DNA from: Eledone cirrhosa
Taxonomy: Eukaryota
DNA length: 64,000 nt
Direction of reading: 5' to 3'
Assembly: GCA_964016885.1 (NCBI GenBank)
Contig: OZ024743.1
Coordinates: 111,662,001-111,726,000, forward strand
The notes below the pieces were generated by a model. That model made no database searches, was not told where the DNA came from, and was given only the letters and a program-made list of their open reading frames with translations. This document shows, one piece after another, positions 5,616 through 53,462 of the stretch; position 1 is the first letter of the stretch; every line of letters begins with the position of its first letter. The position numbers were made by a program, and so were the translations under genes.

Positions 5616-5810
5616 TAATAATAATTGTTTCTACTTTAGGCACAAGGCCAGCAATTACCCAGTGCATTACTGGTACTTTATTTTATCGACCCCGTAAGGA
5701 TGAAAGGCAAAGTCAACCTCGGCGGGATTTGAACTCAGATCGTAAAGGGACGTAACTATGCTGGAAAGCATGGCGTCCGACCCTCTACCGATACTGCCAA
5801 TCCACCGCCC
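5611..5810 (-). mobile_element. tRNA-derived SINE family 1, full-length young copy
   Basis: Minus strand reads GGGCGGTGGATTGGCAGTATCGG (A-box-like), GAGTTCAAATCCC (B-box), GGGGTCGATAAAATAAAGTACCAG core, then GGCCTTGTGCCTAAAGTAGAAACA(ATT)n; near-identical copies throughout the window. Confidence 0.9.
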
Positions 5811-8800: not shown

Positions 8801-9848
8801 TTCTGATTAGATTTGTGTGGACCTGAACCAACTATATATTGTTACGGGATCGAATATAGATACGTTTTTTCATTGGGTGAGTAGATAGGGAAAGCATAGG
8901 GTGTCCACAATTCCAAACGAACGCCTATTCATGTCACAAATCCATGATCCGCATGGTCGACCTAGAACCGGGGACATTCTTACGAGCAGCTTATGGCTTT
9001 ATACACGGCGCGTAAAGCTAAGAAAGACCTATTCAACACTAGCTAAACGTAGATTGACATGGAATATCGTCAATAGTCCCTGGGATGCCCTAAATAGAGA
9101 GATTCAAGTTGAATCAATAGCCTTTAGTAAAGTAGTAGCAATAGAATAAAGAAAGTAATAGATAAGGATAGTATAGCTTTTCTACGCTTTCAAGTGGTAG
9201 CCTATTCAGAGCAAAATGTGTGATATGTATGCTCGAATTAGATACGACACCCAGATTAGCACTTGGTTACTGGAAGTTAACTATGTCGTTTCTGGCACGT
9301 AGAACTTGCAGGGACCAGATCAACAATTTAGTCAAGCAAACTTTGTCAGGACTTTGTCATCAACGACTGGTGGTGTGGGGCTCTCTGAAGAGAGAAAGTA
9401 ATTTCGATTGTTTTTAGCAAAAAAGTAGTGCTAGCGAAAATAGATAGGAAAAGGATCTGGTAGCTAGACTAGTAGAGGCGAGTAGATGGCATTGCAACCG
9501 ACAGGCTAGCAGCGATAATATCATTAGACCATTTCTTCAACGTTGCATTGTCAGAGCTAAGGAGCCTGCCCTATGAAACGTGGGAAAAAAGCTAATCCTT
9601 AAGTCCCAGTTTCAAAGTTGCAACGTGGTAAATGAACCACAAATCGCTGCGAAAAGCATTGAACAACAGCCATTATTCGTAAGGCACTGACCAAGTGTAC
9701 GAGCCGCACAGTTGGGACAGTCTGCCATACGAGTTTTACTTAGATACTAGATCACCCATGACCCTTTGGGTCACGTTCACTTCAAAATATTTTTAAATAA
9801 TTAAAATATACACAGACATGTATATAATGTGAAATGAAACTGGAAGGC

Positions 9849-10014: not shown

Positions 10015-10422
10015 ATAAAATATTAAACAAATAATGAATAAACAATTCCTTATATTAAACAAAAAAAAGTTCATTATTTAACGATCGTTTCTAGGATATA
10101 TATGTGTGTTAGAGTTGGCATGCATATTCAACAGATCTATGTACAAAATTATACAAAATTATACAAACTATCAAGATTAAATATACATACCAACACATAT
10201 ATACGCCGTCTTCAGAAATAATTTATTATTTCTGAAGACGGCGTATATATGTGTTGGTATGTATATTTAATCTTGATAGTTTGTATAATTTTGTATAATT
10301 TTGTACATAGATCTGTTGAATATGCATGCCAACTCTAACACACATATATATCCTAGAAACGATCGTTAAATAATGAACTTTTTTTGTTTAATATAAGGAA
10401 TTGTTTATTCATTATTTGTTTA

Positions 10423-10877: not shown

Positions 10878-12384
10878 ATGAAGGTATCCAGAAAACCCTA
10901 TATCTCGGGAACCCTTGATTTGATTTACGCGAAACTTGTTTTATTCCATTTGTATTCTTATTTCAGAGCATCTTCCTTTCAAAGTATTTTCCCATCATGC
11001 ACCCTTTTGACTGTATTACATTACAGGCAAACAAGCAATCACAGAGATTTAGTAATATATAGTTAGATGCCAAATTTGTTCTCCGATCTACTCAAAACTG
11101 TTTGCTACAACTGACAGGAGAACGGGGTCATTCCTATTTCTATGAATGGAGGCCCTGTAATGGTGATGCGGAAAGACGAGAACAGTGGGGACGTATTTGA
11201 TAATTTCTGCTAAACGCAGACCTTAGGAAATTGGTCAAGAAGATAGCTACGGCGTTGGCACTTGTGGTTGAGAGACTATAATGGAACTTCAGATGTGTGC
11301 AATCCCAGCCAGGTCCATATACGACTATCTAACCTCATGCTAACCTCATGCGATATTTCATCTGGTGGTTAAGGATGAATCTGGCTGATAGATCAATTTG
11401 AACAAATCGAAACCTTTTGATATGTTCGTCCATCATTACCTGGAAGCTTCAGTGCAGATCCCTGCGATGAATAGCAGTATCTGCTTGGTGGTCAAAATAT
11501 GGGGCCACTTATATGAACCATTCCAGTTCACAATCTCGGTCCATCATATGTGCTCTCTCTCCTCCCTTCTGTACATATTGACTGTCGAGCCAGTACTGCG
11601 GACATCAGGTCTGTTACAGTGCATCATGCTCGACCAGGGACGTGGAAGGACTGCGGCGAAAGTTCTGAAACCAATTTGCTCGGCAACTTATTTGAGGAAT
11701 ATTAAATGTTGAAAGGAGCAGAGTGTGTGACTTTGCACCTTGAAATCTAGAGAAGCAAATATATGCCTTTCAACTGCGTCGTCGGATGCTCGGCGGACGG
11801 TTGCTTGGGGCCCGGGTTGGGCCAGACCTCCAAGTGCATGAGAACTGGAACGAGATAACAAGTAATTGCCCATTCTCAGTTAGAAATGTGTATAGAGAAA
11901 GCTATTCCTGAAAGGTCGGTGGTGCTAGTAAACATCTATACCACGTCTGATATCTATTAACTCCAGACCATCATGTCATTCCTCAGTTCACACCCTACCA
12001 AATTTGAACTCTTGGGCTTAAATGTCTCGTGAAAGGGACAGGTTCTATTTGTAAAGTGATCTATACGCTGTCATAGGCACCCATTACAAGGGGGACTGGG
12101 AAGCGGAGGCTGATGGAGTAACATACTTTGAGGCTCTGGCCACTCCAGAAATTCCTAATCGGTGGACAGGTTTGTTTGCCATTTGTGTGTCATGTCTTTC
12201 CGAAGCATCTTAGTGCTACCGGGAGAGGAGGGCACTGCAAGTTCGAGGTAAACTCTACAAGCAGGGATGTTCAGTCAAATAGACCTGTTTGCGGTGCAAG
12301 CAGAGCGTCAAAACCGTTCTGCATGCACACATCCAGTGTCCGTGCATTAATAATTTGTGTAGTTTTGTTAAACAGCCATGTTCA

Positions 12385-15300
12385 CGTTGGTGAACCTGGA
12401 CGTGAACAATAACGATGGTGATGCCTTTAGACTGGTGGCTGTCTATGCCCCTACTGGGGCAGGACGGCCGGACTTCTTTAGACGCCTGGAAGCATTTCTG
12501 TGTACGTCTCGCCCTTTACTGTTAGCGGGGATTGGAACGACATCATCTTAGACGCACGCAGGGACTGTGTGGGAGTATCCGATAGGACCGGGAGAAGGGG
12601 GTGCAAAAGCCTCAAGAACCTGATCAGCCAGTTCCAACTGTCTGACAGGTATCGACAAAATTTCCCTAATGCGCCAGTGTGGACCTGGACTAACCGCATA
12701 GAGTCATCTAGATCGTATATAGACAGGATATTCATTAGGAAAATAGACAGAAATAGTGTAAGCTGTCCACGTTTTGAAACGGTCGCCTATTCAGATCACA
12801 AGATTGTGATCTGTATGGTCGACCTAGATAAGGCGCGTAGGTTAGGACCTGGTTACAAGAAGCTAAACATGTCATTTCCGGCACGTAAGGCTTACAGGGA
12901 CCGGGTCAACGACAGATGGTGGGGTCTCTCAAAAGAGAGATTAGAGTAATGTCGATAGAGTTTAGCAAAGATGTAGCGTTATAGAAAAATAGAAAGGAGG
13001 GGGAGTTGATAGATAAGTTAGATGAGGCTATTGGTAGTGGCATTGCAACTGACGTGCTAGCGGGGAGAATGGCATTATACCATTTCTTCAATGCGAAACA
13101 CGAAGGTTGCATTGTCAGAGCTAAGGTGCGTGCTCTGAGAAACGAGGGAACCAAAGCTGTTCGATGGGCCCGCGTGGCAGAGGCGCAGCGTGGTAATAAA
13201 ACCACGATTCGGTCTTTGACCGACCGAGACGGACACGAGCTGAGCGATTCCAAGCGGATGTCTGAGGTCTTTCGACAACATTTTGCTCGGTTGTTCGGAG
13301 GAAGTGGCGGGTCAGAGATGGTGGCGGACTTCAGTCCCTACCTTGATGGCTTGCCGCAACTCTCGACGGCTGAGCTGGGCGCTGCGAAAGCCAATTACGT
13401 CAGCCGAGATTCAGGATGCCCTTGTCGGCTGCATGAGGAGCAAGTCACCCGGTTAGGATGGTCTGCCCTACTAGATTACGTAAATATGCCAGATTTGTTC
13501 TCCAATCTCCTCGAAGCCCTCTACTGCAAATGGCAGCAAAACGGGAATATTCCCAGTTCTGTGAGCTGGGGCGTAGTGACGCTGATAAGGAAAGACGAGA
13601 ACAAGAGGGACACATTAGACAATTTCAAACCCATAACTCTGCTCAACACAGAGTTTAAGATTTTGGCCAGGGTGTTAGCGAAGAGGTTGGCGCTTGTCGT
13701 CGGGGATTTGTTTGGGGAGGCGCAAACTTGCGCAATCCCAACCAGGTCCATACACGATAATCTCCACCTAATACGATACCTCATAGAGAGGGTAGGGTGT
13801 AAACCTGGCTTCGGTGGGTCTCTGTTAAATTTAGATCAATCGAAAGCATTCGATAGTTTCGACCATCGGTACCTGGAGGCTGTCCTTAAGGCGGCTGGCT
13901 TTGGCCCCGTCTTCAGCAGCTGGATCGCTGCAATGCACAGCGGCACCTGGAGAGGCAAGTTCATGCCGTCCAACAGCGTCGTTAGGCGCTGGACGGACCG
14001 GTAAATTTGCTAGGATTTGGTTCGGGCCAGACCTCCAGGTGGATAAGAATCGGGACGAGGTGATGGGCAGGGTAGCCAGTCTCACTCAGAAATGGTCTAG
14101 GATGAAGCTATCACTGAAAGGTCGGGCGGAGGTGGCGACGCGTACATCGCGTCCGTCATCTACTACCGTCTGACCGTCGTCCCTTGCCCCCGTTCGCGCC
14201 TCGCCATCTTGGAGCAGCTCCTCTTCAAATACTTGTGGAGGGGTCAGGTTCCGCTGGAGAGGCGGTCCATCTGCTGCCAGCACCCTCTACGTGGAGGGCT
14301 GGGCTTGCCGTGGCTAATGATGCGCAGGCACGCGCTGTGGCTGCGGCATCTCCAGATATCTGCCTAAATGGTGAACAGGTGTGGTCGCCGTTTGTCAGAC
14401 GGGCCTTTTCGCAGCTCGTTTCTTTGACTGAGCTGCAGTCCTGGGGCAAGAAGAGACCGACACTGGGTGACTGACATCTGGAATCATGCCAGGCACTCAC
14501 TGCCCTCTACCAGGCGTTTAATGCGGTCAGTGGAACTTCCACTCTCGAGTTCTATAGAGGATTAGTGGTGGGCAAGTGCGACGACGCACTCGGAGAGGCT
14601 CTGGGAGTCAACGAAGTCGAACTAACCAGTCTGTACCGGAGGACTTTCGAGCCGGGGACGATGGATAATTTCCAAAAATCCCTCGCTTGGCAGTGCCACC
14701 GGGAGGCACTGCCGTTTCGAGATAAACTCTACAGGCACGGAAGTCAGTCGGACCAGCCCGAGATGCGCGCAGAGCGACGAAACCGTTCTGCACGCACTCG
14801 TCCAGTGTCCGTGCATTACTGACTTGTGGAGTTATGTCAAACAGCTACTGTCGCGTGTGGAACGAATCCGGCTATCGGCCGATTCCATAGTGAAGATCGA
14901 CCCGCCGCCTTCTTTTGGCCAGGAAGAGCAGGCAATTTTCCTCTTTCTGGTGGCAGTAACGAAAAAGGTTGTATGGTGGACGAGGTTGAAAGGACTGAAG
15001 ACAGACACTTTTATCTTCGGCCAATCCCTCATCAACCTTTTCAAGTTTCACTTGGAAAGCAAGGTGAGGGTGGTGAGAGAAGTGCTGCCCCCCCCCCCAG
15101 TACATTTGCTGAAAGGTGGGTGAATGTGGCGAGAATGGCCCGTGTGAGTGGGCCTACTCTGGTCATGCGGCTGTAGGTAGTTAAATTTGAGGAGGAGAGG
15201 GGTGCCCTTCCAGGGTGCCCTCTAAGCGTCGGGTCGTTCAGGATTGGTGGGGTACCTGAACGAACCCTATGTGGTTATGCCCCCTATTGGGGAATCTTTT

Positions 15301-15458
15301 CTTGTAATTTTATTGTTATTTGTTATTGTTATTTTTTGTTTACTCGATTTTTCTGTAAAATCAAGCTGTCCCAGTCTTTTGTATTGTCCCCTATATGTCG
15401 GCCCTTGTGGCCAATACATGAAATCATTATTAATATTATTATTATTATTATTATTATT
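12385..15458 (+). pseudogene. Tx1-like LINE copy B: 5'-truncated ORF2 plus 3'UTR and (ATT)n tail, close relative of copy C
   Basis: Colinear with 17882-21297; frameshifts and stops; ~315 bp deletion at ~13940 removes YADD; ends ggcccttgtggccaatacatgaaatc(att)n. Confidence 0.95.
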
Positions 15459-15669
15459 GACGAAAGTGGATGTACGTTTTTTGAAGCTCCGTGAGTAAGC
15501 AATTTTTTGAGGATTAATTGTAGAGAATTGTTTATTTTTTGTACCGCTGAAGCATTATAAGACATTAATTTGTATCCTGTGAAGGAATAACTCATAATAT
15601 TTGGGCCTTTTGGCCCAAATATTTGAACTTTATTTTGAAAAAAAATAATAATTTTTTTCTCAAAAAAAC

Positions 15670-17580
15670 ATGGCGGAGCCACGCCCCCTAAAGGCGGGTC
15701 TGCTGTCGTGCAACGGCGACTTGAGCGTTGAGAGGAGAGGTGAGGCGAGGAGCGCCACCAGCACGAATGTGAGCAGCGACAGTGCCAGCACCAACGGGCC
15801 GAGCGGCGCGGAAGGTGGTAACAGCGACAACACCAACACCAACAAGCCGAACAGCGCAGAAGGTGGTAATAACGAGAGCACCAACAAAACGAACAGCACA
15901 GAGAGTAATAGTAGCGACAGCAACAGCACCAACAAGGCCAACAGCACAGAGGGTAACCACGACACAGGGGAGAACAACAACAGCAATAGCAGCAGCAACA
16001 CCAACAAGAACAACAACAGTGACAACACCAACAAGAACACTTTCGCTGCTGTGGCAGCGGCTAAAAGGAGACCATGCTACAGCATCGACTTAACCAACAG
16101 AGAGGAAAAGTTGGCCCAGGCCTGGAAAATCATAAATCAAGAGCAGACCTGGGCAAACTTAACTGTCCCGGCAGAAGCCATTGAGGCAGTGGAAAAAAGA
16201 ACGGTGCATTTCAGATGCATCTCAGTAGAGACAAAGAGGGCAGCGATAATCGCCCAAGCTGACATAGAAGCCGCACTGAAATACATCAGAGAGGACACAG
16301 ACTTCATAGAGAGGGGCAGGCAATACGGCACCGTTTCGGTGCTGTTCAAGTCTGAAGCCCTCGCTGTGAAGCATTCAATGACCCCTTGCAAAACCAGCAA
16401 GGTCATAATGTATCCCTCCCACATGGGAAAACGAATAGCACGTGTGCGCATTCCCAGGATTCCACCAGGACTTGATATGTGGTGGCTCCTGGGTTGCGTA
16501 ATCGTGGAAGGAACGGATACAGTCCCGGTAGAGGCAACGAGAACTGCCAGGGACGACTGGTCCGGGGTTGATCTGGAGATACTGCTCCAAATCAGACCCG
16601 AAAACGTAAAAACAATCCCGGACCACATCCGCCTCCAAAACGGGAGGGTGTTGCATATAATGACTGAGGGCAAAAGGCCGCATTGTTTCCTTTGTGGGGA
16701 AACGACACACTTGCGAGCCTTCTGCCCTCAACTGCCGAAAAGCGCAAGGGGTCGAAAGATTCCACTGCTGGCGACGCCGGGACAAGGACCAACAGCAACA
16801 CCGTCAACAATGGAACCACCAAAATTGCACACCCAGGGGGGAAACGAGGAAAGCTCTCCCATTCCCCCTCCCCCCCAAAATACACACACGAACAAGAACA
16901 TAAACACTCACTCAGACACAAACACGCTCACAGCCACAGACCCCTCATCCTCCAGCAGTGAAGATGAGGGAAAACCAAAGTCCCCCAAAATACAAAAAAC
17001 AAAACACAAAAAAAAAAAAAATCCACAAAGCACAAACACCCCCACAAAAAAAAATATACACACCACCCACACAAACATTTTCCCCACAGCATCACCAACA
17101 CAACCACCAAAATCCCCCAAACGCAAACAAGCTAAACAGACACAAGAACAAATAGACACACAAACATCAGAAACTACAGACACCCCACCCACAACAAACG
17201 CAGACACAATAGAAACAACACTAACAAAGCTATCACCACCACAATCACACGAACAAATAAAACCCGAGCAACAAAACATTAAAAACTTCGTGCTTGCCAG
17301 AAGGGCCAACAAGGAATTGATGGCCCATGTAGCACGAAGCACAAACATCGAAAAAGACGGGGAAACATTTGAAGCGAGCACATTTCGCGTACCAGATAAT
17401 TTGCTTCTGATGCGAATGTCGCTCGCTTCATACAAAGAAATTCGAAAGAGCTTTCCTCGGGATGTGGGAACCCCGAACGTAAAACCCACGTCAAGACTAT
17501 TAAAGGGGTTCCCAAAAGAAACCCCACAAACCATGGAGGTCGAACCACCCGACCTTCACAAGACCCCGGAAGGTAAGTAA
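15670..17580 (+). CDS. LINE ORF1p, gag-like nucleic-acid-binding protein (636 aa)
   Basis: Open ORF upstream of the RT ORF; Asn/Ser/Thr-rich N-terminus, TFAAVAAA motif, globular core, CX2CX4HX4C knuckle CFLCGETTHLRAFC, Thr/Pro/Lys-rich linker, small C-terminal domain. Confidence 0.9.
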   Translation: MAEPRPLKAGLLSCNGDLSVERRGEARSATSTNVSSDSASTNGPSGAEGGNSDNTNTNKPNSAEGGNNESTNKTNSTESNSSDSNSTNKANSTEGNHDTGENNNSNSSSNTNKNNNSDNTNKNTFAAVAAAKRRPCYSIDLTNREEKLAQAWKIINQEQTWANLTVPAEAIEAVEKRTVHFRCISVETKRAAIIAQADIEAALKYIREDTDFIERGRQYGTVSVLFKSEALAVKHSMTPCKTSKVIMYPSHMGKRIARVRIPRIPPGLDMWWLLGCVIVEGTDTVPVEATRTARDDWSGVDLEILLQIRPENVKTIPDHIRLQNGRVLHIMTEGKRPHCFLCGETTHLRAFCPQLPKSARGRKIPLLATPGQGPTATPSTMEPPKLHTQGGNEESSPIPPPPQNTHTNKNINTHSDTNTLTATDPSSSSSEDEGKPKSPKIQKTKHKKKKNPQSTNTPTKKNIHTTHTNIFPTASPTQPPKSPKRKQAKQTQEQIDTQTSETTDTPPTTNADTIETTLTKLSPPQSHEQIKPEQQNIKNFVLARRANKELMAHVARSTNIEKDGETFEASTFRVPDNLLLMRMSLASYKEIRKSFPRDVGTPNVKPTSRLLKGFPKETPQTMEVEPPDLHKTPEGK

Positions 17581-17609
17581 ACCTTTCCTCTCCCATTCAT
17601 CCTGCCAGC

Positions 17610-20600
17610 ATGGCCATAAGAGTAGGAAGTTTAAATGTTCGTGGCCTGGGGTCGCCCTGGAAGCAAGGTCACTTGCTCAACGACCTCAGGTCACTAGGAA
17701 TGGATGTAATTGCCATCAGCGAGACCAGAATTTCCGACACACGCGCACTGGCGCCGATTTTCGACGATTATCAGATCTTTGCATCTGTTAGTCGGCCGGG
17801 AATGGGAGGTGGAGTGGCTGTGCTGTTTAGGAAATGTCTGGATCTCGAGGTAAGGTCAATCTTCCGGGATCCTGACGGAAAGTTGGTGGTCCTGGACGTG
17901 AGCAATAGCGAAGGTGGTGCCTTTAGACTGGTGGCCGTCTACGCCCCTACTGGGGCCGGTCGGCCGGACTTCTTTAGGCGCCTGGAAAACTTTCTGCTTA
18001 CGTCTCGCCCTTTACTGTTAATAGGGGATTGGAATGGCATCTTAGAAGCACGCTGGGATTGTGTGGGAGTATCTGATAGGAGCGGGGGGTGCAAAAGCCT
18101 CAAGTACCTGATCAGCCAGTTTCAACTGTCTGACAGGTACCGACTAGATTTCCCTAATGCGCCAGTATGGACCTGGACCAATCGCATAGGGTCATCTAGA
18201 TCGTACATAGATAGGATTTTCATTAGGAAAAGAGATAGAAATAGTGTAGGATGTCCACATTTTAAAACGGTTGCCTATTCAGATCACAAGCTTGTGATCT
18301 GTATGGTCGACCTAGATAAGACACGTAGGTTAGGACCTAGCTACTGGAAGCTAAACATGTCGTTTCCGGCACGTAAAGCTTACAGGGACCGGGTCAACAA
18401 CTTAGTTAAGCAAAAGTTGACAGGGGGGGTTGTCAAAAACAGGTGGTGGGGGGCACTCAAAAGAGAGATTAGAGCAACCTCGATAGGATTTAGCAAAGAA
18501 GTAGCAATAGAGAAAAATAGAAAGGAGGAGGGGCTGATAGCTAAGTTAGACGAGGCTATTTGTAGTGGCATTGCAACAGACGTGCTAGCGGCGAGAATGG
18601 CACTAGACCATTTCTTCAATGCGAAACACGAAGGTTGCATTGTCAGAGCTAAGGCGCGTGCTCTGAGGAACGAGGGAACCAAAGCTGCCCGATGGGCTCG
18701 CTTTGCAGAGACGCAGCGTGGAAATAAAACCACAATTCGGTCTTTGACGGATCGAGATGGACACGAACTGAGCGATTCCAAGCAGATGTGTGAGGCCTTT
18801 CGCCAGCACTTTGCTCGATTGTTCGGGAGGATGGGTGAGTCGGAGACGGCGGCGGACTTCAGTCCCTACCTCGACGGCTTGCCACGCCTCTCGACGGCCG
18901 ACGCTGAGCGCTGCGAAGAGCCGATAACATCAGCCGAAATTCAGGACGCCCTTGTCGGCTGCTCGAGTCGCAAGTCACCCGGTTTGGATGGTCTGCCCTA
19001 CGAGCTTTACGTAAATATGCCAGACTTGTTCTCCGATCTCCTCGAAGCGCTCTACTGCAACTGGCAGCAGAACGGGAGCATTCCCAGTTCTGTGAGCCGT
19101 GGCGTAGTGACGCTGATAAGGAAAGACGAGAACAAGAGGGACACACTAGATAATTTCAGGCCCATAACCCTGCTCAACACAGAGTTTAAGATTTTGGCCA
19201 AGGTGTTAGCGAAAAGGTTGGCGCTTGTCGTCAAAGATTTGGTTGGGGAGGCGCAAACTTGCGCAATCCCGACCAGGTCCATACACGACAACCTCCACCT
19301 CATGCGATACATCATAGAGAGGGTTGGGTGCAAACCTGGCTTCGGTGGGGCTCTGATCAATTTAGATCAATCGAAAGCATTCGATAGGGTCGACCATCGG
19401 TACTTGGAGGCTGTCCTCGAGGCGGCTGGCTTCGGCCCCGTCTTCAGAAGCTGGATCGCTGCAATGTACAGCGGCATCCGCTCGGTGGTCAAAGTTAATG
19501 GCCACCTCTCGGAACCGTTTCAGATCTCTCGATCGGTCCGTCAAGGGTGCCCTCTCTCCTCACTTCTGTACGTATTGACTCTTGAGCCTCTACTGCGGAA
19601 GCTGGAGTTGTTGCAGGGCATCCCGCTCGAACCGGGACGTAGAAAGGCTGCGTCCGCTTATGCGGACGACATCACCGTGATGGTGTCGGACACCTCGGAA
19701 ATCGAGGTGATCCGCACCCATTTGGAGGAATATGAAAGGTTGACGGGAGCAAAACTTAACCCGGAAAAGTCGGTGGGCTTGCAGCTCGGCACCTGGAGAG
19801 GCAAGTCCATGCCGTCCAACAGCGTCGTTGGGCGCTGGACAGACGGACCGGTAAAGTTGCTCGGGGTTTGGTTCGGACCAGACCTCCAGGTGGATAAGAA
19901 TTGGGACGAGGTGACGAGCAGGATAGCCAACCTCACCCAGAAATGGGCTGAGAGAAAGCTATCACTGAAAGGGCGGGCGGAGGTGGCGAACGCGTACATC
20001 GCCTCCGTCATCTACTACCGCCTGACCGTCGTGCCTTGCCCCCGTCCACGCCTCGCCAATTTGGAACGGCTCCTTTTCAAATTTTTGTGGAGGGGACGGG
20101 TCCCGTTGGTGAGGCGGTCCATCTGCTGCCAGCACCCTCTTCGTGGAGGGCTGGGCATGCCGTGGCTAATGATGCGCAGACATGCGCTGAGGCTGCGACA
20201 TCTCCAGATATTTTGCCTAAACGGTGAACAGGTGTGGTCGCCGTTTGTTAGACGGGCCTTTCCGCAGCTCATCTCTTTGACTGAGCTGCAGTCCTGGGTC
20301 AAGAAGAGACCGAGACTGGGCGACTGGCATCTGGAATGTTGCCAGGCGCTCACTGCACTCTGCAAGGTGGGCAATGCGGTCAGTGGAACTTCCACTCAAG
20401 ATTTCTATAGAGGATTAGTGGAGGGCAAGTGCGATGACGTACTAGGAGAGGCTCTGGGCGTCAACGAAGTAGAACTGACCAGTATGTTCCGGAGGACTTT
20501 CGAGCCGGGGACGATGGATAACTTCCAGAAATCCCTCGCTTGGCAGTGCTACCGGGGGGCGCTGCCGGTTCGGGATAAACTCTACAGGCACGGAAGTGCT

Positions 20601-21029
20601 GTCAGACGAACCTGCCCGAGATGCGCGCAGAGCGACGAAACCGTTCTGCACGCACTCGTCCAGTGTCCGTGCATTGCTGACTTGTGGGGTTATGTCGAAC
20701 AGCTATTGTCGCGTGTAGAACGGATCCGGCTATCGTCCGAGTCCATAGTGAAGATTGACCCGCCGCCTTCTTTTGGTCAGGAAGGGCAGGCAATTTTCCT
20801 CTGCCTGGTGGCAGTAGCGAAAGAGGTTGCATGGTGGACCAGGTTGAAAGGACTGAAGACAGACACTTTTCTCTTCGGCCAATCCCTCATCAACTTCTTC
20901 AAGTTTCACTTGGAAAGGAAGGTGAGGGTGGAGAGAGAAGTGCTGCCCCCCAGTACATTTACTGAAAGGTGGGTGAATGTGGCGAGAATGGCCCGCGTGA
21001 GTGGGCCTACTCTGATCATGCGCCTGTAG
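17610..21029 (+). CDS. LINE ORF2p: APE endonuclease, reverse transcriptase and C-terminal CCHC (1139 aa)
   Basis: APE motifs SLNVRGL, SETR, VYAP, GDWN, SYIDRIF, SDHK; YWKLN; RT motifs KSPGLDGLP, NFRPITLLN, LDQSKAFDRVDH, VRQGCPLS, YADD (19659-19670); GGLG; CPRCX8HX4C. DQ.KAFDRVDH is typical of the Tx1 group. Confidence 0.97.
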   Translation: MAIRVGSLNVRGLGSPWKQGHLLNDLRSLGMDVIAISETRISDTRALAPIFDDYQIFASVSRPGMGGGVAVLFRKCLDLEVRSIFRDPDGKLVVLDVSNSEGGAFRLVAVYAPTGAGRPDFFRRLENFLLTSRPLLLIGDWNGILEARWDCVGVSDRSGGCKSLKYLISQFQLSDRYRLDFPNAPVWTWTNRIGSSRSYIDRIFIRKRDRNSVGCPHFKTVAYSDHKLVICMVDLDKTRRLGPSYWKLNMSFPARKAYRDRVNNLVKQKLTGGVVKNRWWGALKREIRATSIGFSKEVAIEKNRKEEGLIAKLDEAICSGIATDVLAARMALDHFFNAKHEGCIVRAKARALRNEGTKAARWARFAETQRGNKTTIRSLTDRDGHELSDSKQMCEAFRQHFARLFGRMGESETAADFSPYLDGLPRLSTADAERCEEPITSAEIQDALVGCSSRKSPGLDGLPYELYVNMPDLFSDLLEALYCNWQQNGSIPSSVSRGVVTLIRKDENKRDTLDNFRPITLLNTEFKILAKVLAKRLALVVKDLVGEAQTCAIPTRSIHDNLHLMRYIIERVGCKPGFGGALINLDQSKAFDRVDHRYLEAVLEAAGFGPVFRSWIAAMYSGIRSVVKVNGHLSEPFQISRSVRQGCPLSSLLYVLTLEPLLRKLELLQGIPLEPGRRKAASAYADDITVMVSDTSEIEVIRTHLEEYERLTGAKLNPEKSVGLQLGTWRGKSMPSNSVVGRWTDGPVKLLGVWFGPDLQVDKNWDEVTSRIANLTQKWAERKLSLKGRAEVANAYIASVIYYRLTVVPCPRPRLANLERLLFKFLWRGRVPLVRRSICCQHPLRGGLGMPWLMMRRHALRLRHLQIFCLNGEQVWSPFVRRAFPQLISLTELQSWVKKRPRLGDWHLECCQALTALCKVGNAVSGTSTQDFYRGLVEGKCDDVLGEALGVNEVELTSMFRRTFEPGTMDNFQKSLAWQCYRGALPVRDKLYRHGSAVRRTCPRCAQSDETVLHALVQCPCIADLWGYVEQLLSRVERIRLSSESIVKIDPPPSFGQEGQAIFLCLVAVAKEVAWWTRLKGLKTDTFLFGQSLINFFKFHLERKVRVEREVLPPSTFTERWVNVARMARVSGPTLIMRL

Positions 21030-21297
21030 GCTGGTGAATTCGAGAAGGAGAGGGGTGCCCTTCCCGGGTGCCCTAGGAGCGTCGGGTGGCTCAGGACTGG
21101 TGGGGTGCTTGAGTTAACCCTGGGTGGTGATCCCTCTTATTGGGGAACTTTCATTGTTGTATTTTTATTGTTATTTTGTTTTTTTGTTATTTATACTTAC
21201 TCGATCTCTATGTAAACCCCCACTGTCCCTGTCTATTGTGTTGTCCCCTATATGTCGGCCCTTGTGGCCAATAAATGAAATCATTATTATTATTATT

Positions 21298-21448: not shown

Positions 21449-24103
21449 AAGCGTTAATTAAAACCAAAATATATAATACATATATTCATATGTATATGCG
21501 TCTGTTGAAGGGTTATATGCGTTTGTTTCTAACCATACACATTTTATAGGAAAATATATTACTAGTTATAGACATGATAAGACAAACTGTCTCCTGTCTT
21601 TTAAGCAACATCATATCCGGGTTGGACAGTTGAGTTGGAATTCGTTTAAGATTATAATATGTAATAGAATTATTACTTTGTATACATCTAATTAAATATT
21701 TGTGAATATAGCTTATTGCGCCCATTAAACAAAGTTTTGTATCTATGATTATGAAAAATTTCTAAAGGAATGTGATTTCGAAGCGGAGTTAAATATGTTA
21801 ACGCACCTGCAGCTATATGATGATGTTATTCGGATACATAAAAGAATTATTGTGTATGAGACAATAGAAATGACTCGAGGTCAGTATCCAAGGGATTTTC
21901 GCCGAAGAATTATTACGTTGATGTTGTTTACCTCGTTCGTGACGCATTCTTTGTCTGTGACGTATGTCAAATTTGATTGCACTCTCAACTATTGTTTTCT
22001 ATCTTGTCTACAACAATACTTGCCGATGGGGACATTGTCATTTATATGGTCACTTTGAGACTGATATCGCATCGGTTCTTTTTATTAATAAGCCGTGCAG
22101 AGCGTGGGGGAATTAAGAGCCAATCTATGTGGATACGCTGAAGGCTTGACACGACTCAGACTCATTGACACCATAATCGATCACAGAGCCTCTGGAAAGT
22201 GCTGTGTACATATCGATGGTACAATCATTGACCTTCTGTACAAGAAAGCTATTAAATAAGCACTTACATTTCTCCCTGGCTGATTTATGAGCTGTCAACC
22301 ACGGTTATAAAACCTAATACTCGCCTCTCTTAATACATTCCCTTCTATATTATACAAGGGACAACGCATTGAATCCATCCTTACCCTCTCATGTCACTAG
22401 AACCCGATGTATAAAATACAAATTTCAGTTCATGAAAGGCGGAACCATTGCAAACATTTCCGGTCGAAAGAAATAAAACGACATCAAGAACCAGTTCAGC
22501 TTAGTCTTAAAGCTTAGCAGCAAAACGTGCCAGGCAGTATCTGCATAATTATATTAATCATGCGCCTTCTAAAGTAAGAGGAGGGATGGTGCGGATATAT
22601 GCATTCAGTAAATAGAATTAAACAAAGCTATAGCGCCTGGTTTGATGCGTATTATTGGTACAAAGACCGGCACTCGTTATGAGTAAAAACATTGCAGTTT
22701 TATTGTCTTGCAACCAATTTGTTATTAGTGATAAAGTACAAGCGGTGACTTCATAATGCTGAACTAAAACTATGTAGAGATTTGAAAGATACGTGAAAAC
22801 GAATAAAATGATGTCGAAAATTAACAAATTATCGACCAGGTACTGTAGTTGTCAAGTATATTAATAATGATAATAAATGTGCACCCCTCCAGAATATAAA
22901 ACCCTTTACATTTAACGCAACAGAAACAGCAGATTCAATCAGTTACTAGAGGGAATATCATGTCAGAACGGAGATTAAAGCTGATTACACTGTGTATGAA
23001 ATTCTCTAGAACACAGGGACATTTTAAAATTCAATTTCCACAACTTCAAGGAAAGGTTTAAAGAGCCTCTTGCAATTGTTATGGAATATGTTATGCGTCC
23101 ATATTGGTTAGAATTTAACGATATAGAAAAGTGTTCTGATAGTCTTTTCTAGATCTTTAATCTAATAATTCTAACGAATTTATATCAGTTGACAGAGCAA
23201 CGATTGTAAGATATTTCCATAACCAATTGCTCAATACAAAAGCACGTATTCAGGAAATAGTTATTGAAAAGTTATATTTACTCAAGCATCACATAGATTA
23301 AAGTAGATCCAATATTTGCATCTTAAATTTAATCAGTCCCTTCAAAGCTATTCAAAATGAATGCAGATCGATGGTTGCATACTTCGAAAGGGACATAATA
23401 TATAAAAGTATAAAGATGGACAAAGCTATACTCATATGCATATATTAAGCTTTCAATAAAATAGAAAGTTTTGTAATATGTCAATTGAAATTACAATGAA
23501 GGGATCAGAGATACCTTTGATCAGGCCCGTTAACCACGGCTTGAATGCGTGTTTTAGAATGTTCCAAATTTTACTAAGATGTTTTAATATTATTTTATTG
23601 AATTATACTTTGGGTATCTTCAAGAGATTATATCTCATGATATTATTCTATTAAATGTACCCATAAATATAATATAGTATTACGGTTTATTCACCACCTC
23701 GAGTTTAGTATTATAGTCTAAAAAAGTTCAATACATGAAATAAAAGTAGGTTCTCTATATTTACAACCAATCAGCTGCGATGATGTCTGAATATATATGA
23801 ATGAAACCATTTTGATGTCAGTTTTAACTATGTGGGAAATATGGGATACACGCTGTCAATATAAATAGATTAATGAGTTTCATGATTAAAAATTAAATAG
23901 CGAAGAGTAGACAATACTAAAACTACTAAACAAATATTAATTAAAATTTCAATTTTCTAGCAATGCGTAGGCACAACAGACAATTACGGTTTTTTTAAGC
24001 GAATCAGAGCCGTAGCAAATATTGGTGACCGGAATTATATCGCCAGTGTTGTAATGTATCTGGGTCAAAACAAAAAAATATTCAGCAAGTCGTTCCATCT
24101 ACA

Positions 24104-24296
24104 TAATAATTGTTTCTACTTTTGGCACAAGGCCAGTAATTATCACAGTATATTACTGATGCTTTATTTTATCGACCCCGTAAGAATGAAAGGCAAAGTT
24201 AACCTCCGCGGGATTTGAACTCAGAGCATAAAGGGACGTAACTCTTTGCTGCAAAGCATGGCGTCCAACCCTCTACCGATACTGCCAATCCACCGC
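24104..24296 (-). mobile_element. SINE family 1 copy
   Basis: Matches 5611-5810; a 3' fragment follows at ~24439-24535. Confidence 0.9.
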
Positions 24297-24900: not shown

Positions 24901-25074
24901 CTGGTTTTGTGATTTTGTATAAACCAGCATCGATTTATTTCTGTTGTAATTATATATGGTTGTTTCCTAATTTCTCAGCCTCTTGACAAATAAAAAAAAC
25001 ACATCTTTCTTTAAAAACTAAATAAGAATCATTATAGGAAAAATTGATATCCTTGTGTCTGAATGAGAAACCAT

Positions 25075-25272
25075 GTGGATTGGCAGTATCTGTAGAAGGT
25101 CGGACGACATGCTCTTGCAGCATAGAGTTACGCCGCTTTACGGTCTGAGTTCAAATCCCGCCGAGGTTAACTTTGCCTTTTATCCTTACGGGTCGATAAA
25201 ATGCCGGCAATTATTCCAGTAACGCACTGGTAAAGTGTCTGGCCTTGTGCCAACAAGAGAAACAATTATTAT
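25075..25272 (+). mobile_element. SINE family 1 copy (diverged)
   Basis: gtggattggcagtatc...gagttcaaatcccgccgagg...ggccttgtgccaacaagagaaacaattatt. Confidence 0.88.
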
Positions 25273-25947
25273 AACATCTACCTCAGTTCAGCAACAACTT
25301 ACAATAAGCAAACACTACAGCGCTAAATAAAGATGTGTTGTATAATACGAGTGCCGGATAAAAATTTAATACAATGAAAAATTCAGAGGCTGACCAAAAT
25401 ACACATAAAATGACAAAATAAGGTATATTTTTCGACATAGTCCTTAAAAAGAAACATTGCTGTTATTAATAAAAAGAATGAGGATAAAGATAGATTGAAG
25501 GGACGGACGGATTGTAATTGGAAAAAATGTCTTTAGATAAAAATAACAGGTCCATTCATGTTGACATCTCTTGCAAACTGTTGGTGCTGGCGTTTTGTGT
25601 ATGACTTATTTTTCGGAAAAATAGATGATGGAGCGCGTCTACCTAAAATGAAAAAAAAAACGTTTTGTAAAAAGAGCTATAACTGAGCACATGCGTAAGC
25701 ATGTGTGTGTGTGAGTGTGTGTTTGTATCTGTTTGTGTGTTATTATACGTCCGTACGAAGCTAAGAATAAATGTGTGTAAATGAGTGTGCGTGCATTTAA
25801 GTACGAAGCTATGATGAAAAGTATGTTAATATAAGGGTGAAGGGAAGAGTGGAGTGAGCATATATAGTCGGCCTGTAATAGTTGTTAGAAATGTTAATGA
25901 TCAAGAGAAAGCGATTGGAAGCTAAGCGTGTAATAATGGACAGGGTA

Positions 25948-26875
25948 TTAGAGAAATTGGGGAGGTGAGTTGAATCCAAGAGGGAAATAGGACCCAAGGC
26001 GGTGAATCAAACTTTGTTGAGTCCTGGTGTGGGGGGCCTCTGATCCATGATGTAAAATGACACCCAAGACTGAAACATGTAGGGAAGAATGACCAGAAGA
26101 ACAGAAATGACGGGCGACAGGAGTATCCAAACCGAGTTGTATGTCCCTCAAATGCTCAGCAAAACGGTCCGCCATACGGCGTCCCGTTTGTCCGGTATAT
26201 AAAAACCCACAAAGGGAACACCTGAGGGCATAGACAACGTGGGTCGATGTGCAGATGAACGAGTGGTGCATACGGAATGACCCGTTAGGGCCTGTAAGAG
26301 GGGTGAGAGTGCAAATGAAGGGACAAGTGTTGCAAAGGGAACGGGAACAAGGATGAGAACCGGGTGGAGTCGTGGGAGATGACGAGAAGTAACTGCGAAC
26401 CAGGAGGTCGCTGAAGTTGCGGGCGAGCTTAAAAGCAGTAATGGGTGGGTTTGGAAAAAAGCGAGAAGTGATGGGGGTCAGAAAAGGGGATGCGGAAGGA
26501 TCGGAGGATATGTCGCCGGAGTGGTAGGGGGTGGGTGGTAGGTGGGAGGGAAAGGAACGCGGGTGCTGGGAGGGTGGTGTGAAGTGAGAGGGCTGTGGAG
26601 GCAGTCTGTTTTACGGGCGCGGGTGAGAGCAGCTTGGATCAGAGTGGGGGGATATCCTCGCTGGATGAATCAGGAAGCCATGCGAAGAGAATGGGTTTCG
26701 AAATCGTCGTCCTGGCTACAGAGCCGACGAAGATGGAGGAATTGGGAGGAGGGTATGGAGTGTTTGGTGTGGCTTGGAAGGGAGGAGGTGAAGTAGCGGT
26801 AAGATTGGCAGTGTGTTGATTTAATGAAGATGGAAATAGAGAGGGTGTGGTTGGTATAAACGCAAACCACGGGCG
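25948..26875 (-). pseudogene. Penelope-like element 3' half: RT thumb, Zn-linker and GIY-YIG endonuclease (Neptune-type)
   Basis: SIPSSQFLHLRRLCSQDDDF; RGYP; PCSRSLCNTC; CTSTHVVYALRCSLCGFLYTGQTGRRMADRFAEHLRDI..PVARHF..H..GFN; frameshifted. Confidence 0.9.
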
Positions 26876-27429: not shown

Positions 27430-27531
27430 GAGAAGAAAGAAGTATACTGCGTGGTTGCACATGGGTTACATATAAAAAAATTACTCCCTCGTCAGTGATT
27501 TGCCAACCATCATTGATATTTCATCGCATTA

Positions 27532-27713
27532 TGGATTGGCAGTATCGGTAGAAGGTCGGACGCCATGCTTTCAAGCATAGGGACGTCCCTTTACGATCTG
27601 AGTTCAAATCCCGCCGAGGTTGACTTTGCCTTTCTATCCTTACGGGGTCGATAAAATAAAGTACCAGTAATATACTGAGTAATTGCTGGCCTTGTGCCTA
27701 AAGTAGAAACAAT

Positions 27714-27716
<3 letters not shown>
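27532..27716 (+). mobile_element. SINE family 1 copy
   Basis: Near-identical to 32426-32612. Confidence 0.9.
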
Positions 27717-27768
<52 letters not shown>

Positions 27769-27957
27769 CCCCATGTATGCACTAAATGGCGGACGTATTA
27801 GAGTTTGGGTAGCTTCACTCAGGTATTTATCTAGCTGTGGAGGTGACATTGTTGAGATAATTGATAATTGTGAAAGTATAAAGCATAGCCAACTTTCAGC
27901 TTATTGTACATACAGACGGGAATTTTTCTAGTCTCATTTCACGAAGTAGACAATACA

Positions 27958-28146
27958 TAATTGTTTCTACTGTAGGCACAAGGCCAGCAATTACTCAGTA
28001 CATTACTGGTACTTTATTTTATCGACCCCGTAAGGATGAAAGGCAAAGTTAACCTCGGCGGGATTTGATCTCAGATTGTAAAGGGACGTAACTATGCTAG
28101 AAAGCATGGCGTCCAACCCTCTACCGATACTGCCAATTCACTGCCA
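27958..28146 (-). mobile_element. SINE family 1 copy with 16-bp TSD
   Basis: GTAGACAATACATAAT at 27946-27961 and 28148-28163. Confidence 0.93.
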
Positions 28147-32134: not shown

Positions 32135-32677
32135 TATATTTGAAAAAAAGGAAAATAATGACTTCACTTGTAGTGTTAAAATATTTTTGATTTAATGTTA
32201 TAATATTATAATATTATGAGTTGGTAGATCCAGTAAGTTCTTTGTTAACTTCGGTGGGAAGAATTTTAGAGGTTCCTGGTTAACTTGGGTTTGGAGAACT
32301 TTCTCACAATCGTCTGTCTGTGGCGATTGTCAAACTGAGATCAGGTTGAACCCAAGTTAACGAGGAATTTCTAAAATTCTTCCCACTGAAGTTAACAAAG
32401 AACTTACTGGATCTACCAACTCATATGGATTGGCAGTATCGGTGGAGGGTCGGACGCCATGCTTTCCAGCAACGTTACGTCCCTTTACGATCTGAGTTCA
32501 AATCCCGCCGAGGTTGACTTTGCCTTTCATCCTTACGGGGTCGATAAAATAAAGTACCAGTAATGAACTGGGTAATTGCTGGCCTTGTGCCTAAAGTAGA
32601 AACAATTATTATAATATCATAACATTATATCAAAACTTTTTTAACACAACAATTGAAGTCATTATTTTCCTATTTTT

Positions 32678-40499: not shown

Positions 40500-41539
40500 T
40501 GCTATCGTCACCAACGTATACCTTCCTGCCAGATTGTTGAACGTATATACTTAGCTTATGCATATTAATGGCTGAGTAGCCCAATTTGCATATCGAGTGG
40601 GTTAATCGGCCGAAAACGATAAACGGAAAAAATGAAACCAAATATCATTTCCCACTCTTAGTACGGCTGTTACTTAAATATAAGTATGTACACGTACATA
40701 CATATATGTATACAGACATACAGTAGTATGTATATATATATATATATACATGCACACATATATATATGTACGTATGGATTCACCGAACATTTATTATAAT
40801 AAAGGTATAAGGTATACGTTGCTGACGATAGCTAATAAGCTTGAAACTAGTACAGCGTTCCTTTGTCAGTGTTGAACAAACGAGCAACGATGGTTGCTAG
40901 ACACTACGGCTTAATACGGGATGTTTGTTTACAAACACACCGAGCATTATAATAAATGTTCGGTGAATCCATACGTACATATATATATATATATGTGTGC
41001 ATGTATGTATATATGTATACATACTACTGAATGTCTGTATACATATATGTATGTACGTGTAAATACTTATATTTAAGTAACAGGCGTACTAAGAGTGGGA
41101 AATAAAATTTCGTTTTATTTTTTCCGTTTATCGTTTTCGGTGCACCCGGCCGATTAACCCACTCGATATGCACATTGGTCTACTCAGCCATTAATATGCA
41201 TAAGGTAAGTATATACGTTCAACAATCTGGCAGGGGGGTTGCTGACAATAGCTAATAAGCTTGAAACTAGTACAGCGTTCCTTTGTCAGTGTTGAACAAA
41301 CGAGCAGCGATGGTTGCTAGACACTACGGCTTAATACGTGATGTTTGTTTACAAACACACTGAGCATTATAATAAATGTTTGGTGAATTCATACGTGCAT
41401 ATATATATGTGTGCATGTATGTATATATATATACACACTACTGTACGTCTGTATACATATATGTATGTACGTATCCATACTTATATTTAAGTAACACCCG
41501 TACTAAGAGTGGGAAATGAAATTTCGTTTCATTTTTTCC

Positions 41540-42699: not shown

Positions 42700-42732
<33 letters not shown>

Positions 42733-42735
<3 letters not shown>

Positions 42736-42922
42736 TTGTTTCTACGTTAGGCACAAGGCCAGCAATAACCAGTGCATTACTGGTACTTTATTTTATCGAC
42801 CCCGTAAGGATGAAAGGCAAAGTTAACCTCGGCGGGATTTGAACTCACAATGGCAAGGGCCGTAACTCTATACGTCAAAGCATGGCGTCCGACCCTCTAC
42901 CAATACTGCCAATCCACCGCCC
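42733..42922 (-). mobile_element. SINE family 1 copy
   Basis: Full-length match; flanks share tatatattaat. Confidence 0.9.
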
Positions 42923-52505: not shown

Positions 52506-53457
52506 ATAGGAACAAGTAAGATCCCGACGGCTGAGCTCAAGCCGTTTCGACGGCTAATTCTGGACTGAATGAAAATTTATTCAGGTATTTAAATAGCCGA
52601 GCTTATCAAGGGGTAATTCCATATATGGTCAAAGAGATAATCACCAGGATTGGTCACATCACAAGTTAGTAGTAAATCTGTGATGGCAAATTGGTGGGGG
52701 AAGGGGTAGCTGAACCAGCCGGTAGGAGAAAAAGGGAGATGGGGTGGAGTAGACCCATTGATGCGTTGGTAGGGCCGGCTACAGCAGGGTGTGAGGTCAA
52801 AGAAGATACTGGGGAGGGGGATGGGGAGGAAGTCAAAACAGTAAGTAAAACAAAGAAGGGTAAAACTATAAAAAGTACTGAGAGAGAAAAGAAAAAATAA
52901 GCAGTCTCGTTACTAAGACTTAAGTCTCTCGCTATTGCTAGGCTAAAATAATACATAAATAAATAAATAAACAAATAAGTGAATATTCACTTATTTGTTT
53001 ATTTACTTATTTATGTATTTTTTTAGCCTAGCAATAGCGAGAGACTTAAGTCTTAGTAACCAGACTTTCTTTTTTTTGTTTCTCTCTCAGTACTTTTTAT
53101 AGTTTTACCCTTCTTGGTTTTACTTACCGTTTCGACTTACTCCCCATCCCCCTCCACAGTATCTGCTTTGACCTCACACCCAGCTGTAGCCGGCCCTACC
53201 AACGCATGAATGAGTCTACTCCACCCCCTCTCCCTTTTTCTCCTACCGGCAGGTTCAGCTACCCCTTCCCCCACCAATTTGCCATCACAGATTGACTACT
53301 AACTTGTGATGTTACCAATCCTGGTGATTATCTCTTTGACCATATATGGAATTACCCCTTGATAAGCTCGGCTATTTAAATACCTGCTTAAATTTTCATT
53401 CAGTCCAAAATTAGCCGTCGAAACGGCTTGAGCTCAGCCGTCGGGGTCTTACTTGTT

Positions 53458-53462
<5 letters not shown>
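52506..53462. repeat. Spacerless palindrome with ~479 bp arms and one U3-A8 hammerhead per arm
   Basis: Centre GTGAAT|ATTCAC at 52984/52985; arms differ by scattered substitutions; element runs 52428-53462 between (TA)n tracts. Confidence 0.95.
53354..53447 (+). ncRNA. Type I hammerhead, U3-A8 variant, GUC site
   Basis: ACCCC-TTGATAA-G-CT-CGGCTA...TAGCCG-T-C-GAAA-CGGCT-TGAGCTC-AGCCG-T-C-GGGGT; mirror copy at 52521-52614 (-); relative at 59178-59256. Confidence 0.75.

What the first reader, a model, noticed from the sequence alone, without database searches (positions are those of the whole stretch)
21245..21297. Shared 3' recognition module links the intact Tx1-like LINE to the dominant SINE family
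Seen: the LINE ends GGCC-CTTGT-GGCC-AATAAATGAAATC-(ATT)n (21257-21297; also 15400-15458). The SINE ends GGC-CTTGT-GCC-TAAAGTAGAAACA-(ATT)n (e.g. 32581-32610). Both have a GC stem, the identical CTTGT loop, a 13-nt spacer with GAAA at offset 8, and the same tail unit. Known: shared stem-loop plus short-repeat 3' ends define stringent SINE-LINE pairs for L2, CR1 and RTE (e.g. eel UnaL2/UnaSINE1), whereas mammalian L1 is relaxed and poly(A)-dependent. Inference: a stringent-type partnership in the L1/Tx1 clade, naming the likely motor of a very abundant SINE. The true partner may be a sister Tx1 family with a closer tail.
Basis: partly seen in the sequence, partly recalled or inferred. Interest (0 to 1): 0.85.

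Follow-up and report, generated by a model that had tools for sequence, protein, structure and literature searches.

The report
ATT-targeting Tx1 LINE drives dominant SINE
A recently copied LINE retrotransposon lineage that inserts into ATT repeats ends in the same short hairpin-shaped sequence as a SINE with over 240,000 copies and leaves similar insertion marks, so it is likely the enzyme source that spreads this SINE, a pairing not yet tested in cells.

Summary
The motifs are present at the stated coordinates. The LINE (15459-21282) is intact, very young and L1-group (Tx1-like); 19 of 19 readable full-length copies sit inside (ATT)n arrays. The shared (ATT)n is mostly target DNA, not a tail, and a CR1 family ends in it too, so that argument fails. 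Stronger links exist. Sister Tx1 families keep a covarying stem, YYWGT loop, AATAAA and GAAA. Three of them match the SINE end at 16-17 of 24 bases without gaps; the window's family matches only 12-14. SINE insertions start at ATTA, with duplications clustering at 16-22 bp, much like Tx1. CR1 leaves no such duplication; Dong and RTE use other repeats. Against: SINE sites are looser than LINE sites; TATC-targeting Tx1s share the hairpin; a Dong/R4 3' UTR holds an internal, closer look-alike; the hairpin is weak; nothing is tested experimentally. Precedents: stringent L1 pairs in maize and algae, and crocodilian Tx1-Mar/SINEU inferred from targets alone. I found no shared Tx1-SINE 3' hairpin in nine paper searches. 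The scan earlier noted a hairpin-ended Tx1-like LINE in another genome. Tx1 drive through this module: about 0.6.

The parts
15459..21282 (+). Full-length young Tx1-like LINE (family A)
   Evidence: 20 fetched copies align to it at 98.9-99.8%, 19 from base 1; 3015 first-look candidates for the 3' 391 nt
15670..17580 (+). ORF1, 636 aa, with a CX2CX4HX4C knuckle
   Evidence: no Pfam hit
17610..21029 (+). ORF2, 1139 aa: APE endonuclease, reverse transcriptase, zinc finger
   Evidence: Pfam PF03372, PF00078, PF13966; best solved relative human L1 ORF2p, E 2.6e-57
21257..21282 (+). LINE 3' module: 4-bp stem, CTTGT loop, AATAAA, GAAATC
   Evidence: kept across sister families
21283..21297 (+). (ATT)5 right of the LINE, mostly target-site DNA
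   Evidence: (ATT)n also lies left of 19 of 19 readable full-length copies
15426..15458 (+). (ATT)n array behind the older copy, into which the intact LINE inserted
12386..15425 (+). Older, internally deleted copy of the same lineage (87-88% identical) with its own 3' module at 15400-15425
32426..32604 (+).
5626..5802 (-). SINE copy of the youngest type; 1304 exact copies in the genome
45831..46018 (-). SINE copy with a 15-bp target duplication starting ATTAT
27957..28140 (-). SINE copy with a duplication of about 16 bp starting ATTAT
27530..27716 (+). SINE copy
24103..24292 (-). SINE copy
42728..42916 (-). SINE copy with a 13-bp duplication
25072..25274 (+). Older SINE copy

Best explanation
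The ATT-targeting Tx1-like LINE lineage (this family or a sister) likely mobilises the SINE: its ORF2 protein is predicted to recognise a short 3' hairpin with a CUUGU loop and a GAAA at fixed spacing, which the SINE carries, and would then insert the SINE at ATTA sites with duplications like its own. Shown: intact APE-RT ORF2; LINE copies inside (ATT)n arrays; the module kept across Tx1 families; SINE junctions at ATTA with duplications clustering at 16-22 bp. Inferred: ORF2p binds the hairpin; the endonuclease nicks the strand opposite RTTAW; a short AUUA read-through end of the RNA pairs with the nicked DNA; reverse transcription starts at the last base of GAAANN. Also inferred: AATAAA serves only the Pol II LINE transcript, so the Pol III SINE kept the spacing and lost the signal. 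The LINE's longer (AUU)n read-through would confine it to arrays, while the SINE can use any ATTA.
For: (1) Module kept across Tx1 families whose ORF2 C-termini are 47-92% identical to the window's. On 15 hand-picked rows, 85% of cells pair and 0 of 500 shuffles reach the covariation score (not a probability, rows are related). The SINE differs from Tx1 in the inner 11 bases by one C-G to G-C flip. (2) Terminal match of 16-17/24 for families C, D, E, against 3 for CR1, 6-7 for two Dong families and 7-8 for two RTE families; the null is in the observation check. (3) First 30 of 1304 identical SINE copies: junction ATTAT 22, ATTAA 5, GTTAW 3; exact duplication of at least 10 bp in 18 of 30 (control 2 of 870), 12 of them 16-22 bp. 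Random sample: 28 of 50, median 15 (control 12.6%). (4) Tx1 marks: tandem spacers 15-27 nt with mode 18, apart from three longer rows of 42-54 (17 rows, some duplicate loci); duplications in 10 of 13 truncated TATC-group copies, three in non-repeat DNA at 16, 19 and 20 bp, starting right after the last base. (5) CR1: 14 of 17 truncated copies show no duplication; Dong-A: all 25 run into (CATA)n-type repeats. (6) A SINE word lies within 100 nt behind 9 of 90 Tx1 ends, 0 of 30 CR1, 0 of 25 Dong-A and 63 of 5000 random windows. (7) Both are young: 1304 identical SINE copies and at least 40 identical LINE ends.
Against: SINE sites are looser than LINE sites: 1 of 30 young SINEs is followed by three or more ATT units, while 29 of 30 family A ends are. 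TATC-targeting Tx1 families carry the same hairpin, yet 0 of 115 SINE ends are followed by TATC. The window's own family matches only 12-14/24. Hairpin folding is unremarkable (z 0.11 to -1.3), and the 68-nt SINE end prefers another fold. Dong-A holds an internal 24-mer that matches some old SINE ends at up to 20/24. Truncated ATT-group copies gave no clean duplication in unique DNA (2, 7). CR1 is equally young. No LINE with the SINE's exact stem was found.
Confidence: 0.6

Rival explanations
1. Tx1 is the motor, but recognition is relaxed: only endonuclease preference and AUU pairing matter, and the shared hairpin is a relic or serves transcript processing.
For: Weak folding; only 12-14/24 match to the most active family; hairpin shared with TATC-group Tx1s that do not appear to place SINEs; crocodilian SINEU is assigned to Tx1 with no shared 3' end.
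Against: Stem covariation and fixed loop-to-GAAA spacing; the SINE's 11 hairpin bases are 91-99% kept in 88 tails anchored outside the hairpin, while several spacer bases vary.
Confidence: 0.13
2. The SINE end comes from, or is read by, a Dong/R4 element; the likeness to Tx1 is convergent or a later switch of partner.
For: Dong-A's 3' UTR holds a SINE-like 24-mer 50 nt before its end: 17.2 bits, 0 of 3000 shuffles, identical in 25 of 25 copies. A diverged Dong relative keeps its distal half. Dong-R4 is the most active LINE group in Octopus vulgaris (PMC13282606).
Against: The motif is internal and its GGC/GCC stem is broken; the diverged relative has lost the CTTGT loop. Dong-A runs into (CATA)n and other Dong families into (AAT)n, while 94 of 115 SINE ends run into ATTA, 1 into ATAA and 3 into AATA. 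The old SINE copies that match best were picked by eye for that likeness.
Confidence: 0.12
3. A low-copy LINE family that I did not sample ends in the SINE's exact tail and is the true partner.
For: Only about 1 Mb of random DNA (0.03% of the genome) plus hit flanks was surveyed; the looser SINE target hints at another enzyme.
Against: SINE stem plus AATAAA: 4 hits, all SINEs. SINE tail with three upstream bases excluded: 434 hits, 20 fetched, all SINE copies or tail fragments by eye. The exclusion test misses a LINE that shares any of those three bases.
Confidence: 0.1
4. The young CR1 family that ends in (ATT)n mobilises the SINE through the repeat alone.
For: Same repeat unit; young; CORE-SINEs often pair with CR1/L2.
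Against: 3/24 terminal match and a different hairpin; no duplication in 14 of 17 truncated copies, two hits in (TA)n and one 40-nt repeat of uncertain origin.
Confidence: 0.05

Closest known systems
Crocodilian Tx1-Mar / SINEU (Kojima 2015, PMC4494074; passages)
   Same: A Tx1 group assigned as SINE motor by shared target and age; SINEU-1 and -2 also show weaker target preference than the LINE; 16-bp duplication for SINEU-3.
   Different: SINEU ends in poly(A), has snRNA heads and no LINE sharing its 3' end; here the head looks tRNA-like, a 3' hairpin module is shared and the target is a microsatellite.
Maize LINE1-1_ZM / ZmSINE2,3 and Chlamydomonas L1-1_CR / SINEX-3 (Ohshima 2012, PMC3472496; first third of text)
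   Same: L1-clade LINEs sharing a 3' hairpin with SINEs, with variable stem and conserved loop.
   Different: Plant and algal lineages, about 50-80 nt of shared sequence; here an animal Tx1-like lineage, only about 24 nt, and target-specific.
Kibi, Koshi and crocodilian microsatellite-targeting Tx1 families (described in PMC4494074; the 2004 source paper not read)
   Same: Tx1 elements inserting into microsatellites.
   Different: Targets listed there are (TC)n, (TTC)n, (TTCC)n and (TTTC)n; here (ATT)n and (TATC)n.
Zebrafish ZfL2-1/ZfL2-2 stringent 3' stem-loop recognition (PMC4176376; passages)
   Same: Loop-specific, stem-tolerant recognition fits the pattern of variation seen here.
   Different: Shown experimentally for the L2 clade; untested here.
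Octopus OR1/OR2 CORE-SINEs (named in PMC4824008 and PMC4758252; passages)
   Same: Possibly this SINE; the octopus host is my inference from recalled repeat sequence and genome make-up.
   Different: No sequence comparison was possible; no partner LINE for them appears in Ohshima's table of pairs.

Membership tests
L1 group non-LTR retrotransposon | ORF1 plus ORF2 with APE, RT and C-terminal zinc finger, closest to L1 | tested here: met
   (human L1 ORF2p E 2.6e-57; R2 proteins E 1e-22 or weaker)
Tx1 clade | RT phylogeny with named Tx1 elements | not testable with these tools
   No named Tx1 among 97 hits, cluster members or atlas clusters
Tx1 clade | Target-specific insertion into a repeat by an APE-type element | tested here: met
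   19 of 19 readable full-length copies in (ATT)n; TATC group; feature as stated
Tx1 clade | CCHC knuckle in ORF1 (feature recalled, from no call) | tested here: met
   CFLCGETTHLRAFC
Stringent SINE-LINE pair | Shared 3'-terminal sequence beyond chance | tested here: met
   16-17/24 for sister families C, D, E; 12-14 for families A, B
Stringent SINE-LINE pair | Conserved 3' stem-loop with compensatory changes | tested here: met
   folding energy unremarkable
Stringent SINE-LINE pair | Shared element-encoded terminal repeat | tested here: not met
   ATT is mostly target DNA: duplications start right at the junction, and G appears on both copies at GTTA sites
Stringent SINE-LINE pair | Matching target and duplication profile | tested here: inconclusive
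   Same ATTA start and similar lengths, but the SINE target is looser
Stringent SINE-LINE pair | Hairpin required for mobilisation and bound by ORF2p | not testable with these tools
   Needs cell or binding assays
tRNA-derived SINE | [quoted passage not shown] | tested here: inconclusive
   Box-like words by eye (consensus recalled); Rfam gave no tRNA match
CORE-SINE OR1/OR2 | CORE domain and identity to published consensus | not testable with these tools
   No SINE library on hand

The most novel reading that the evidence does not exclude
An animal L1-group (Tx1) lineage uses stringent 3' hairpin recognition, and target choice is split between the endonuclease and RNA-DNA pairing. The LINE is confined to (ATT)n arrays while its SINE, carrying the same hairpin but only a short AUUA end, inserts at any ATTA and outnumbers it about twelvefold. 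The SINE end may also be a mosaic linked to a Dong/R4 3' UTR.
Probability: 0.35. Interest if true: 0.75.

Novelty: new variant of a known kind. Interest (0 to 1): 0.56.

Why it matters
It names a testable, intact and young motor for a SINE with at least 243,665 copies in a 3-Gb genome. It would extend stringent 3' recognition in the L1 group from plants and algae to an animal Tx1-like lineage, which bears on whether relaxed poly(A) recognition by mammalian L1 is derived. A 24-nt signal plus a microsatellite-targeting enzyme is a compact system for asking how RNA and endonuclease share target choice.

Tried and rejected
(ATT)n as a shared tail: rejected. Folding energy as proof of the hairpin: no support. 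CR1 and RTE as partners: ends and marks differ. A Tx1 family with the SINE's own stem: none found. The RVT_1 genome search returned almost only CR1 among its 30 loci and did not list other clades. A DNA search with the SINE returned nothing because common words are skipped; an exact pattern worked. Rfam gave only chance matches. Sequencing runs: no RNA holder listed, so no reads were laid. Naming the clade from protein hits failed. Earlier findings by place and by sequence were empty. Duplication length for ATT-group Tx1 cannot be read exactly inside pure arrays.

Full report
OBSERVATION. The LINE ends GGCC-CTTGT-GGCC, 13 bases, ATT repeats at 21257-21297, and an older copy does so at 15400 with one change. 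The SINE at 32581 ends GGC-CTTGT-GCC, 13 bases, ATTATTAT. A relaxed regex finds 12 such hairpins in the window, 2 LINE ends and 10 SINE-type.

THE LINE. It spans 15459-21282 with ORF1 (636 aa, CCHC knuckle, no Pfam hit) and ORF2 (1139 aa; APE, RT, zinc finger). Its best solved relative is human L1 ORF2p. No tool named it Tx1, so that label rests on the L1-group protein, the target specificity and a recalled ORF1 feature. The host genome is 3.0 Gb; that it is an octopus is my inference, untested. The family is very young: 40 scored of 3015 candidates were about 100% identical. I fetched 20 of the 30 loci in full, leaving out the window's copy, six tandem loci and three more. Nineteen have a readable left flank and all 19 end in (ATT)n; one has an N gap. 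Six of 30 loci are followed directly by another copy. So the element inserts into (ATT)n arrays, including those behind its own copies. The longest flank shared on both sides has mode 18 (6 of 19; range 9-35), an upper bound on the duplication.

THE SINE. About 180-210 bases, with box-like words in the head by eye (Rfam found no tRNA). Its tail pattern occurs 243,665 times against 20,757 for the Tx1 tail pattern, and one 177-base form has 1304 exact copies. In the first 30 of these, the junction reads ATTAT 22, ATTAA 5, GTTAW 3. Twenty have an exact duplication of at least 7 bp, 18 of at least 10 (control 2 of 870), 12 of 16-22; ten have none by this strict test, and some lengths run 1-3 bases into the SINE head. 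Where the site starts with G, both copies carry G, so the ATT belongs to the target. In 1 Mb of evenly spaced stretches plus the window, 28 of 50 full copies have duplications (median 15; control 12.6%), 25 of them starting at the junction.

IS THE SHARED MODULE REAL? Sister families with ORF2 C-termini 47-92% identical keep stem, YYWGT loop, AATAAA and mostly GAAA while the rest of the UTR diverges. Stems include GGCC/GGCC, AACC/GGTT, GCC/GGC, TGCC/GGCA and TGCC/GGTA. On 15 rows that I picked (12 Tx1, 3 SINE), 85% of cells pair, 3 of 4 pairs change on both sides, and 0 of 500 shuffles match the covariation score; the tool warns this is not a probability, and the SINE's C-G to G-C flip is one event. 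In families B, C and D the loop-to-GAAA distance (10) and the GAAA-to-target distance (2) equal the SINE's; in the window's family A the first is 11. Terminal identity to the SINE's commonest letters, out of 24: A 12 (14 shifted), B 14, C 16, D 17, E 16, F 12; CR1 3; Dong 7 and 6; RTE 8 and 7. Of 1282 ATTATT-anchored 24-mers, 6 reach 15, all truncated SINE tails by eye. Folding gives no support: z 0.11 to -1.3, and the 68-base SINE end folds differently.

OTHER CANDIDATE MOTORS. A young CR1 family also ends in (ATT)n, with another hairpin; 14 of 17 truncated copies show no duplication, 2 hits lie in (TA)n and one is a 40-base repeat of uncertain origin. RTE families end in (GAT)n or (CAT)n; Dong families run into (CATA)n or (AAT)n. 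Of 115 distinct SINE ends, 94 run into ATTA, 3 AATA, 1 ATAA, 0 TATC. TATC-targeting Tx1 copies show duplications in 10 of the 13 truncated copies tested (of 20 fetched), three in non-repeat DNA at 16, 19 and 20 bp, starting right after the last base as in the SINE. A SINE word lies within 100 bases behind 5 of 60 family A and 4 of 30 family C ends, 0 of 30 CR1, 0 of 25 Dong-A, and in 63 of 5000 random windows. Two pattern tests for a LINE with the SINE's own stem found none: 4 of 4 hits were SINEs, and 20 fetched of 434 were SINE copies or tail fragments by eye. Neither excludes a rare family.

RESULTS AGAINST. (a) The SINE target is looser: 1 of 30 young copies has three or more ATT units, near the 5% background, against 29 of 30 family A ends. 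(b) TATC-group Tx1s share the hairpin but do not seem to place SINEs at TATC. (c) Dong-A carries an internal SINE-like 24-mer 50 bases before its end (17.2 bits, 0 of 3000 shuffles), identical in 25 of 25 copies. It matches hand-picked old SINE ends at 16-20 of 24, against 15-18 for Tx1 C/D. Its stem is broken, it sits in the loop of a long hairpin, and a diverged relative keeps the distal half but not CTTGT. The direction of any transfer is unknown. (d) Nine truncated ATT-group copies gave no clean duplication in unique DNA. (e) Age does not separate Tx1 from CR1.

MECHANISM. Most likely (0.6) the ATT-group Tx1 ORF2p binds the hairpin-GAAA module, nicks opposite RTTAW, primes on a short AUUA read-through and makes a duplication of about 16-22 bp. 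Binding, nicking and pairing are inferred. Points (a) and (b) would both follow if RNA-DNA pairing at the 3' end helps choose the site; that is a hypothesis. Rivals: relaxed Tx1 drive 0.13, Dong 0.12, unseen LINE 0.10, CR1 0.05.

COMPARISON WITH WHAT IS KNOWN. Ohshima 2012 (PMC3472496, first third read) reports stringent L1-clade pairs in maize and Chlamydomonas. Ohshima 2013 (PMC3747384, passages and Table 1) lists no Tx1 or mollusc pair. Kojima 2015 (PMC4494074, passages) assigns crocodilian SINEU to Tx1-Mar from targets and age, found no LINE sharing the SINEU-1 3' end, and lists (TC)n, (TTC)n, (TTCC)n and (TTTC)n targets. Passage searches in Kojima 2018 (PMC5786205) and the bivalve SINE study (PMC11481361) found no mention of Tx1. 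Octopus papers (PMC13282606, PMC8967140; passages) report abundant SINEs and active Dong-R4, CR1 and L1-Tx1, and the passages seen name no partner. PMC4176376 (passages) shows loop-specific recognition in L2. PMC4824008, PMC4758252 and PMC4640811 were seen as passages. Nine searches showed no Tx1-SINE pair with a shared 3' hairpin. Repbase, SINEBase, the 1994 and 2004 source papers and all supplements were not seen and may hold such a case or these targets. One earlier scan note describes a hairpin-ended L1/Tx1-like LINE in another genome (untested).

VERDICT. A real feature and a well-supported but unproven partnership; a new variant of a known kind. Interest 0.56.

Noticed in passing
L330-L349 (G000 C1), L096, L129, L173, L184, L196: A second Tx1 group with the same 3' hairpin inserts into (TATC)n repeats and piles up in nested clusters.
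   Followed up: partly
L091:5493-5596 minus, L241-L265, L370: A Dong/R4 family targeting (CATA)n holds a SINE-like 24-mer inside a long 3' UTR hairpin (z -3.6).
   Followed up: partly
L112, L004, L006, L026: Dong families ending in (AAT)n insert in the opposite orientation into the same arrays that lie behind Tx1 ends, so two clades use opposite strands of one microsatellite.
   Followed up: partly
L091:2143-6800 plus: A repeated element, partly in tandem units of about 145 bases, ends in a sequence like the 3' end of an RTE family (15 versus 5 matches in 1 Mb); it may be a second SINE-LINE pair or another RTE family.
   Followed up: no
window 25948-26610 minus: 220-aa frame resembling a Penelope-type GIY-YIG C-terminus by recall; no Pfam hit.
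   Followed up: no
window 8815-9593 and 11067-12387 plus: Decayed fragments of older Tx1-like copies (63-74% identical) upstream, forming a nested LINE cluster.
   Followed up: no
G000:C1:126428886-126429317: At least 12 head-to-tail copies, 37 bases apart, of a SINE tail variant.
   Followed up: no
L141-L170: Family A is rarely 5'-truncated: 28 of 30 copies extend beyond 1.5 kb.
   Followed up: no
window 10062-10385, 40610-41140, 52506-53462: Long inverted repeats (161-392 nt arms, close together), possibly MITE-like.
   Followed up: no
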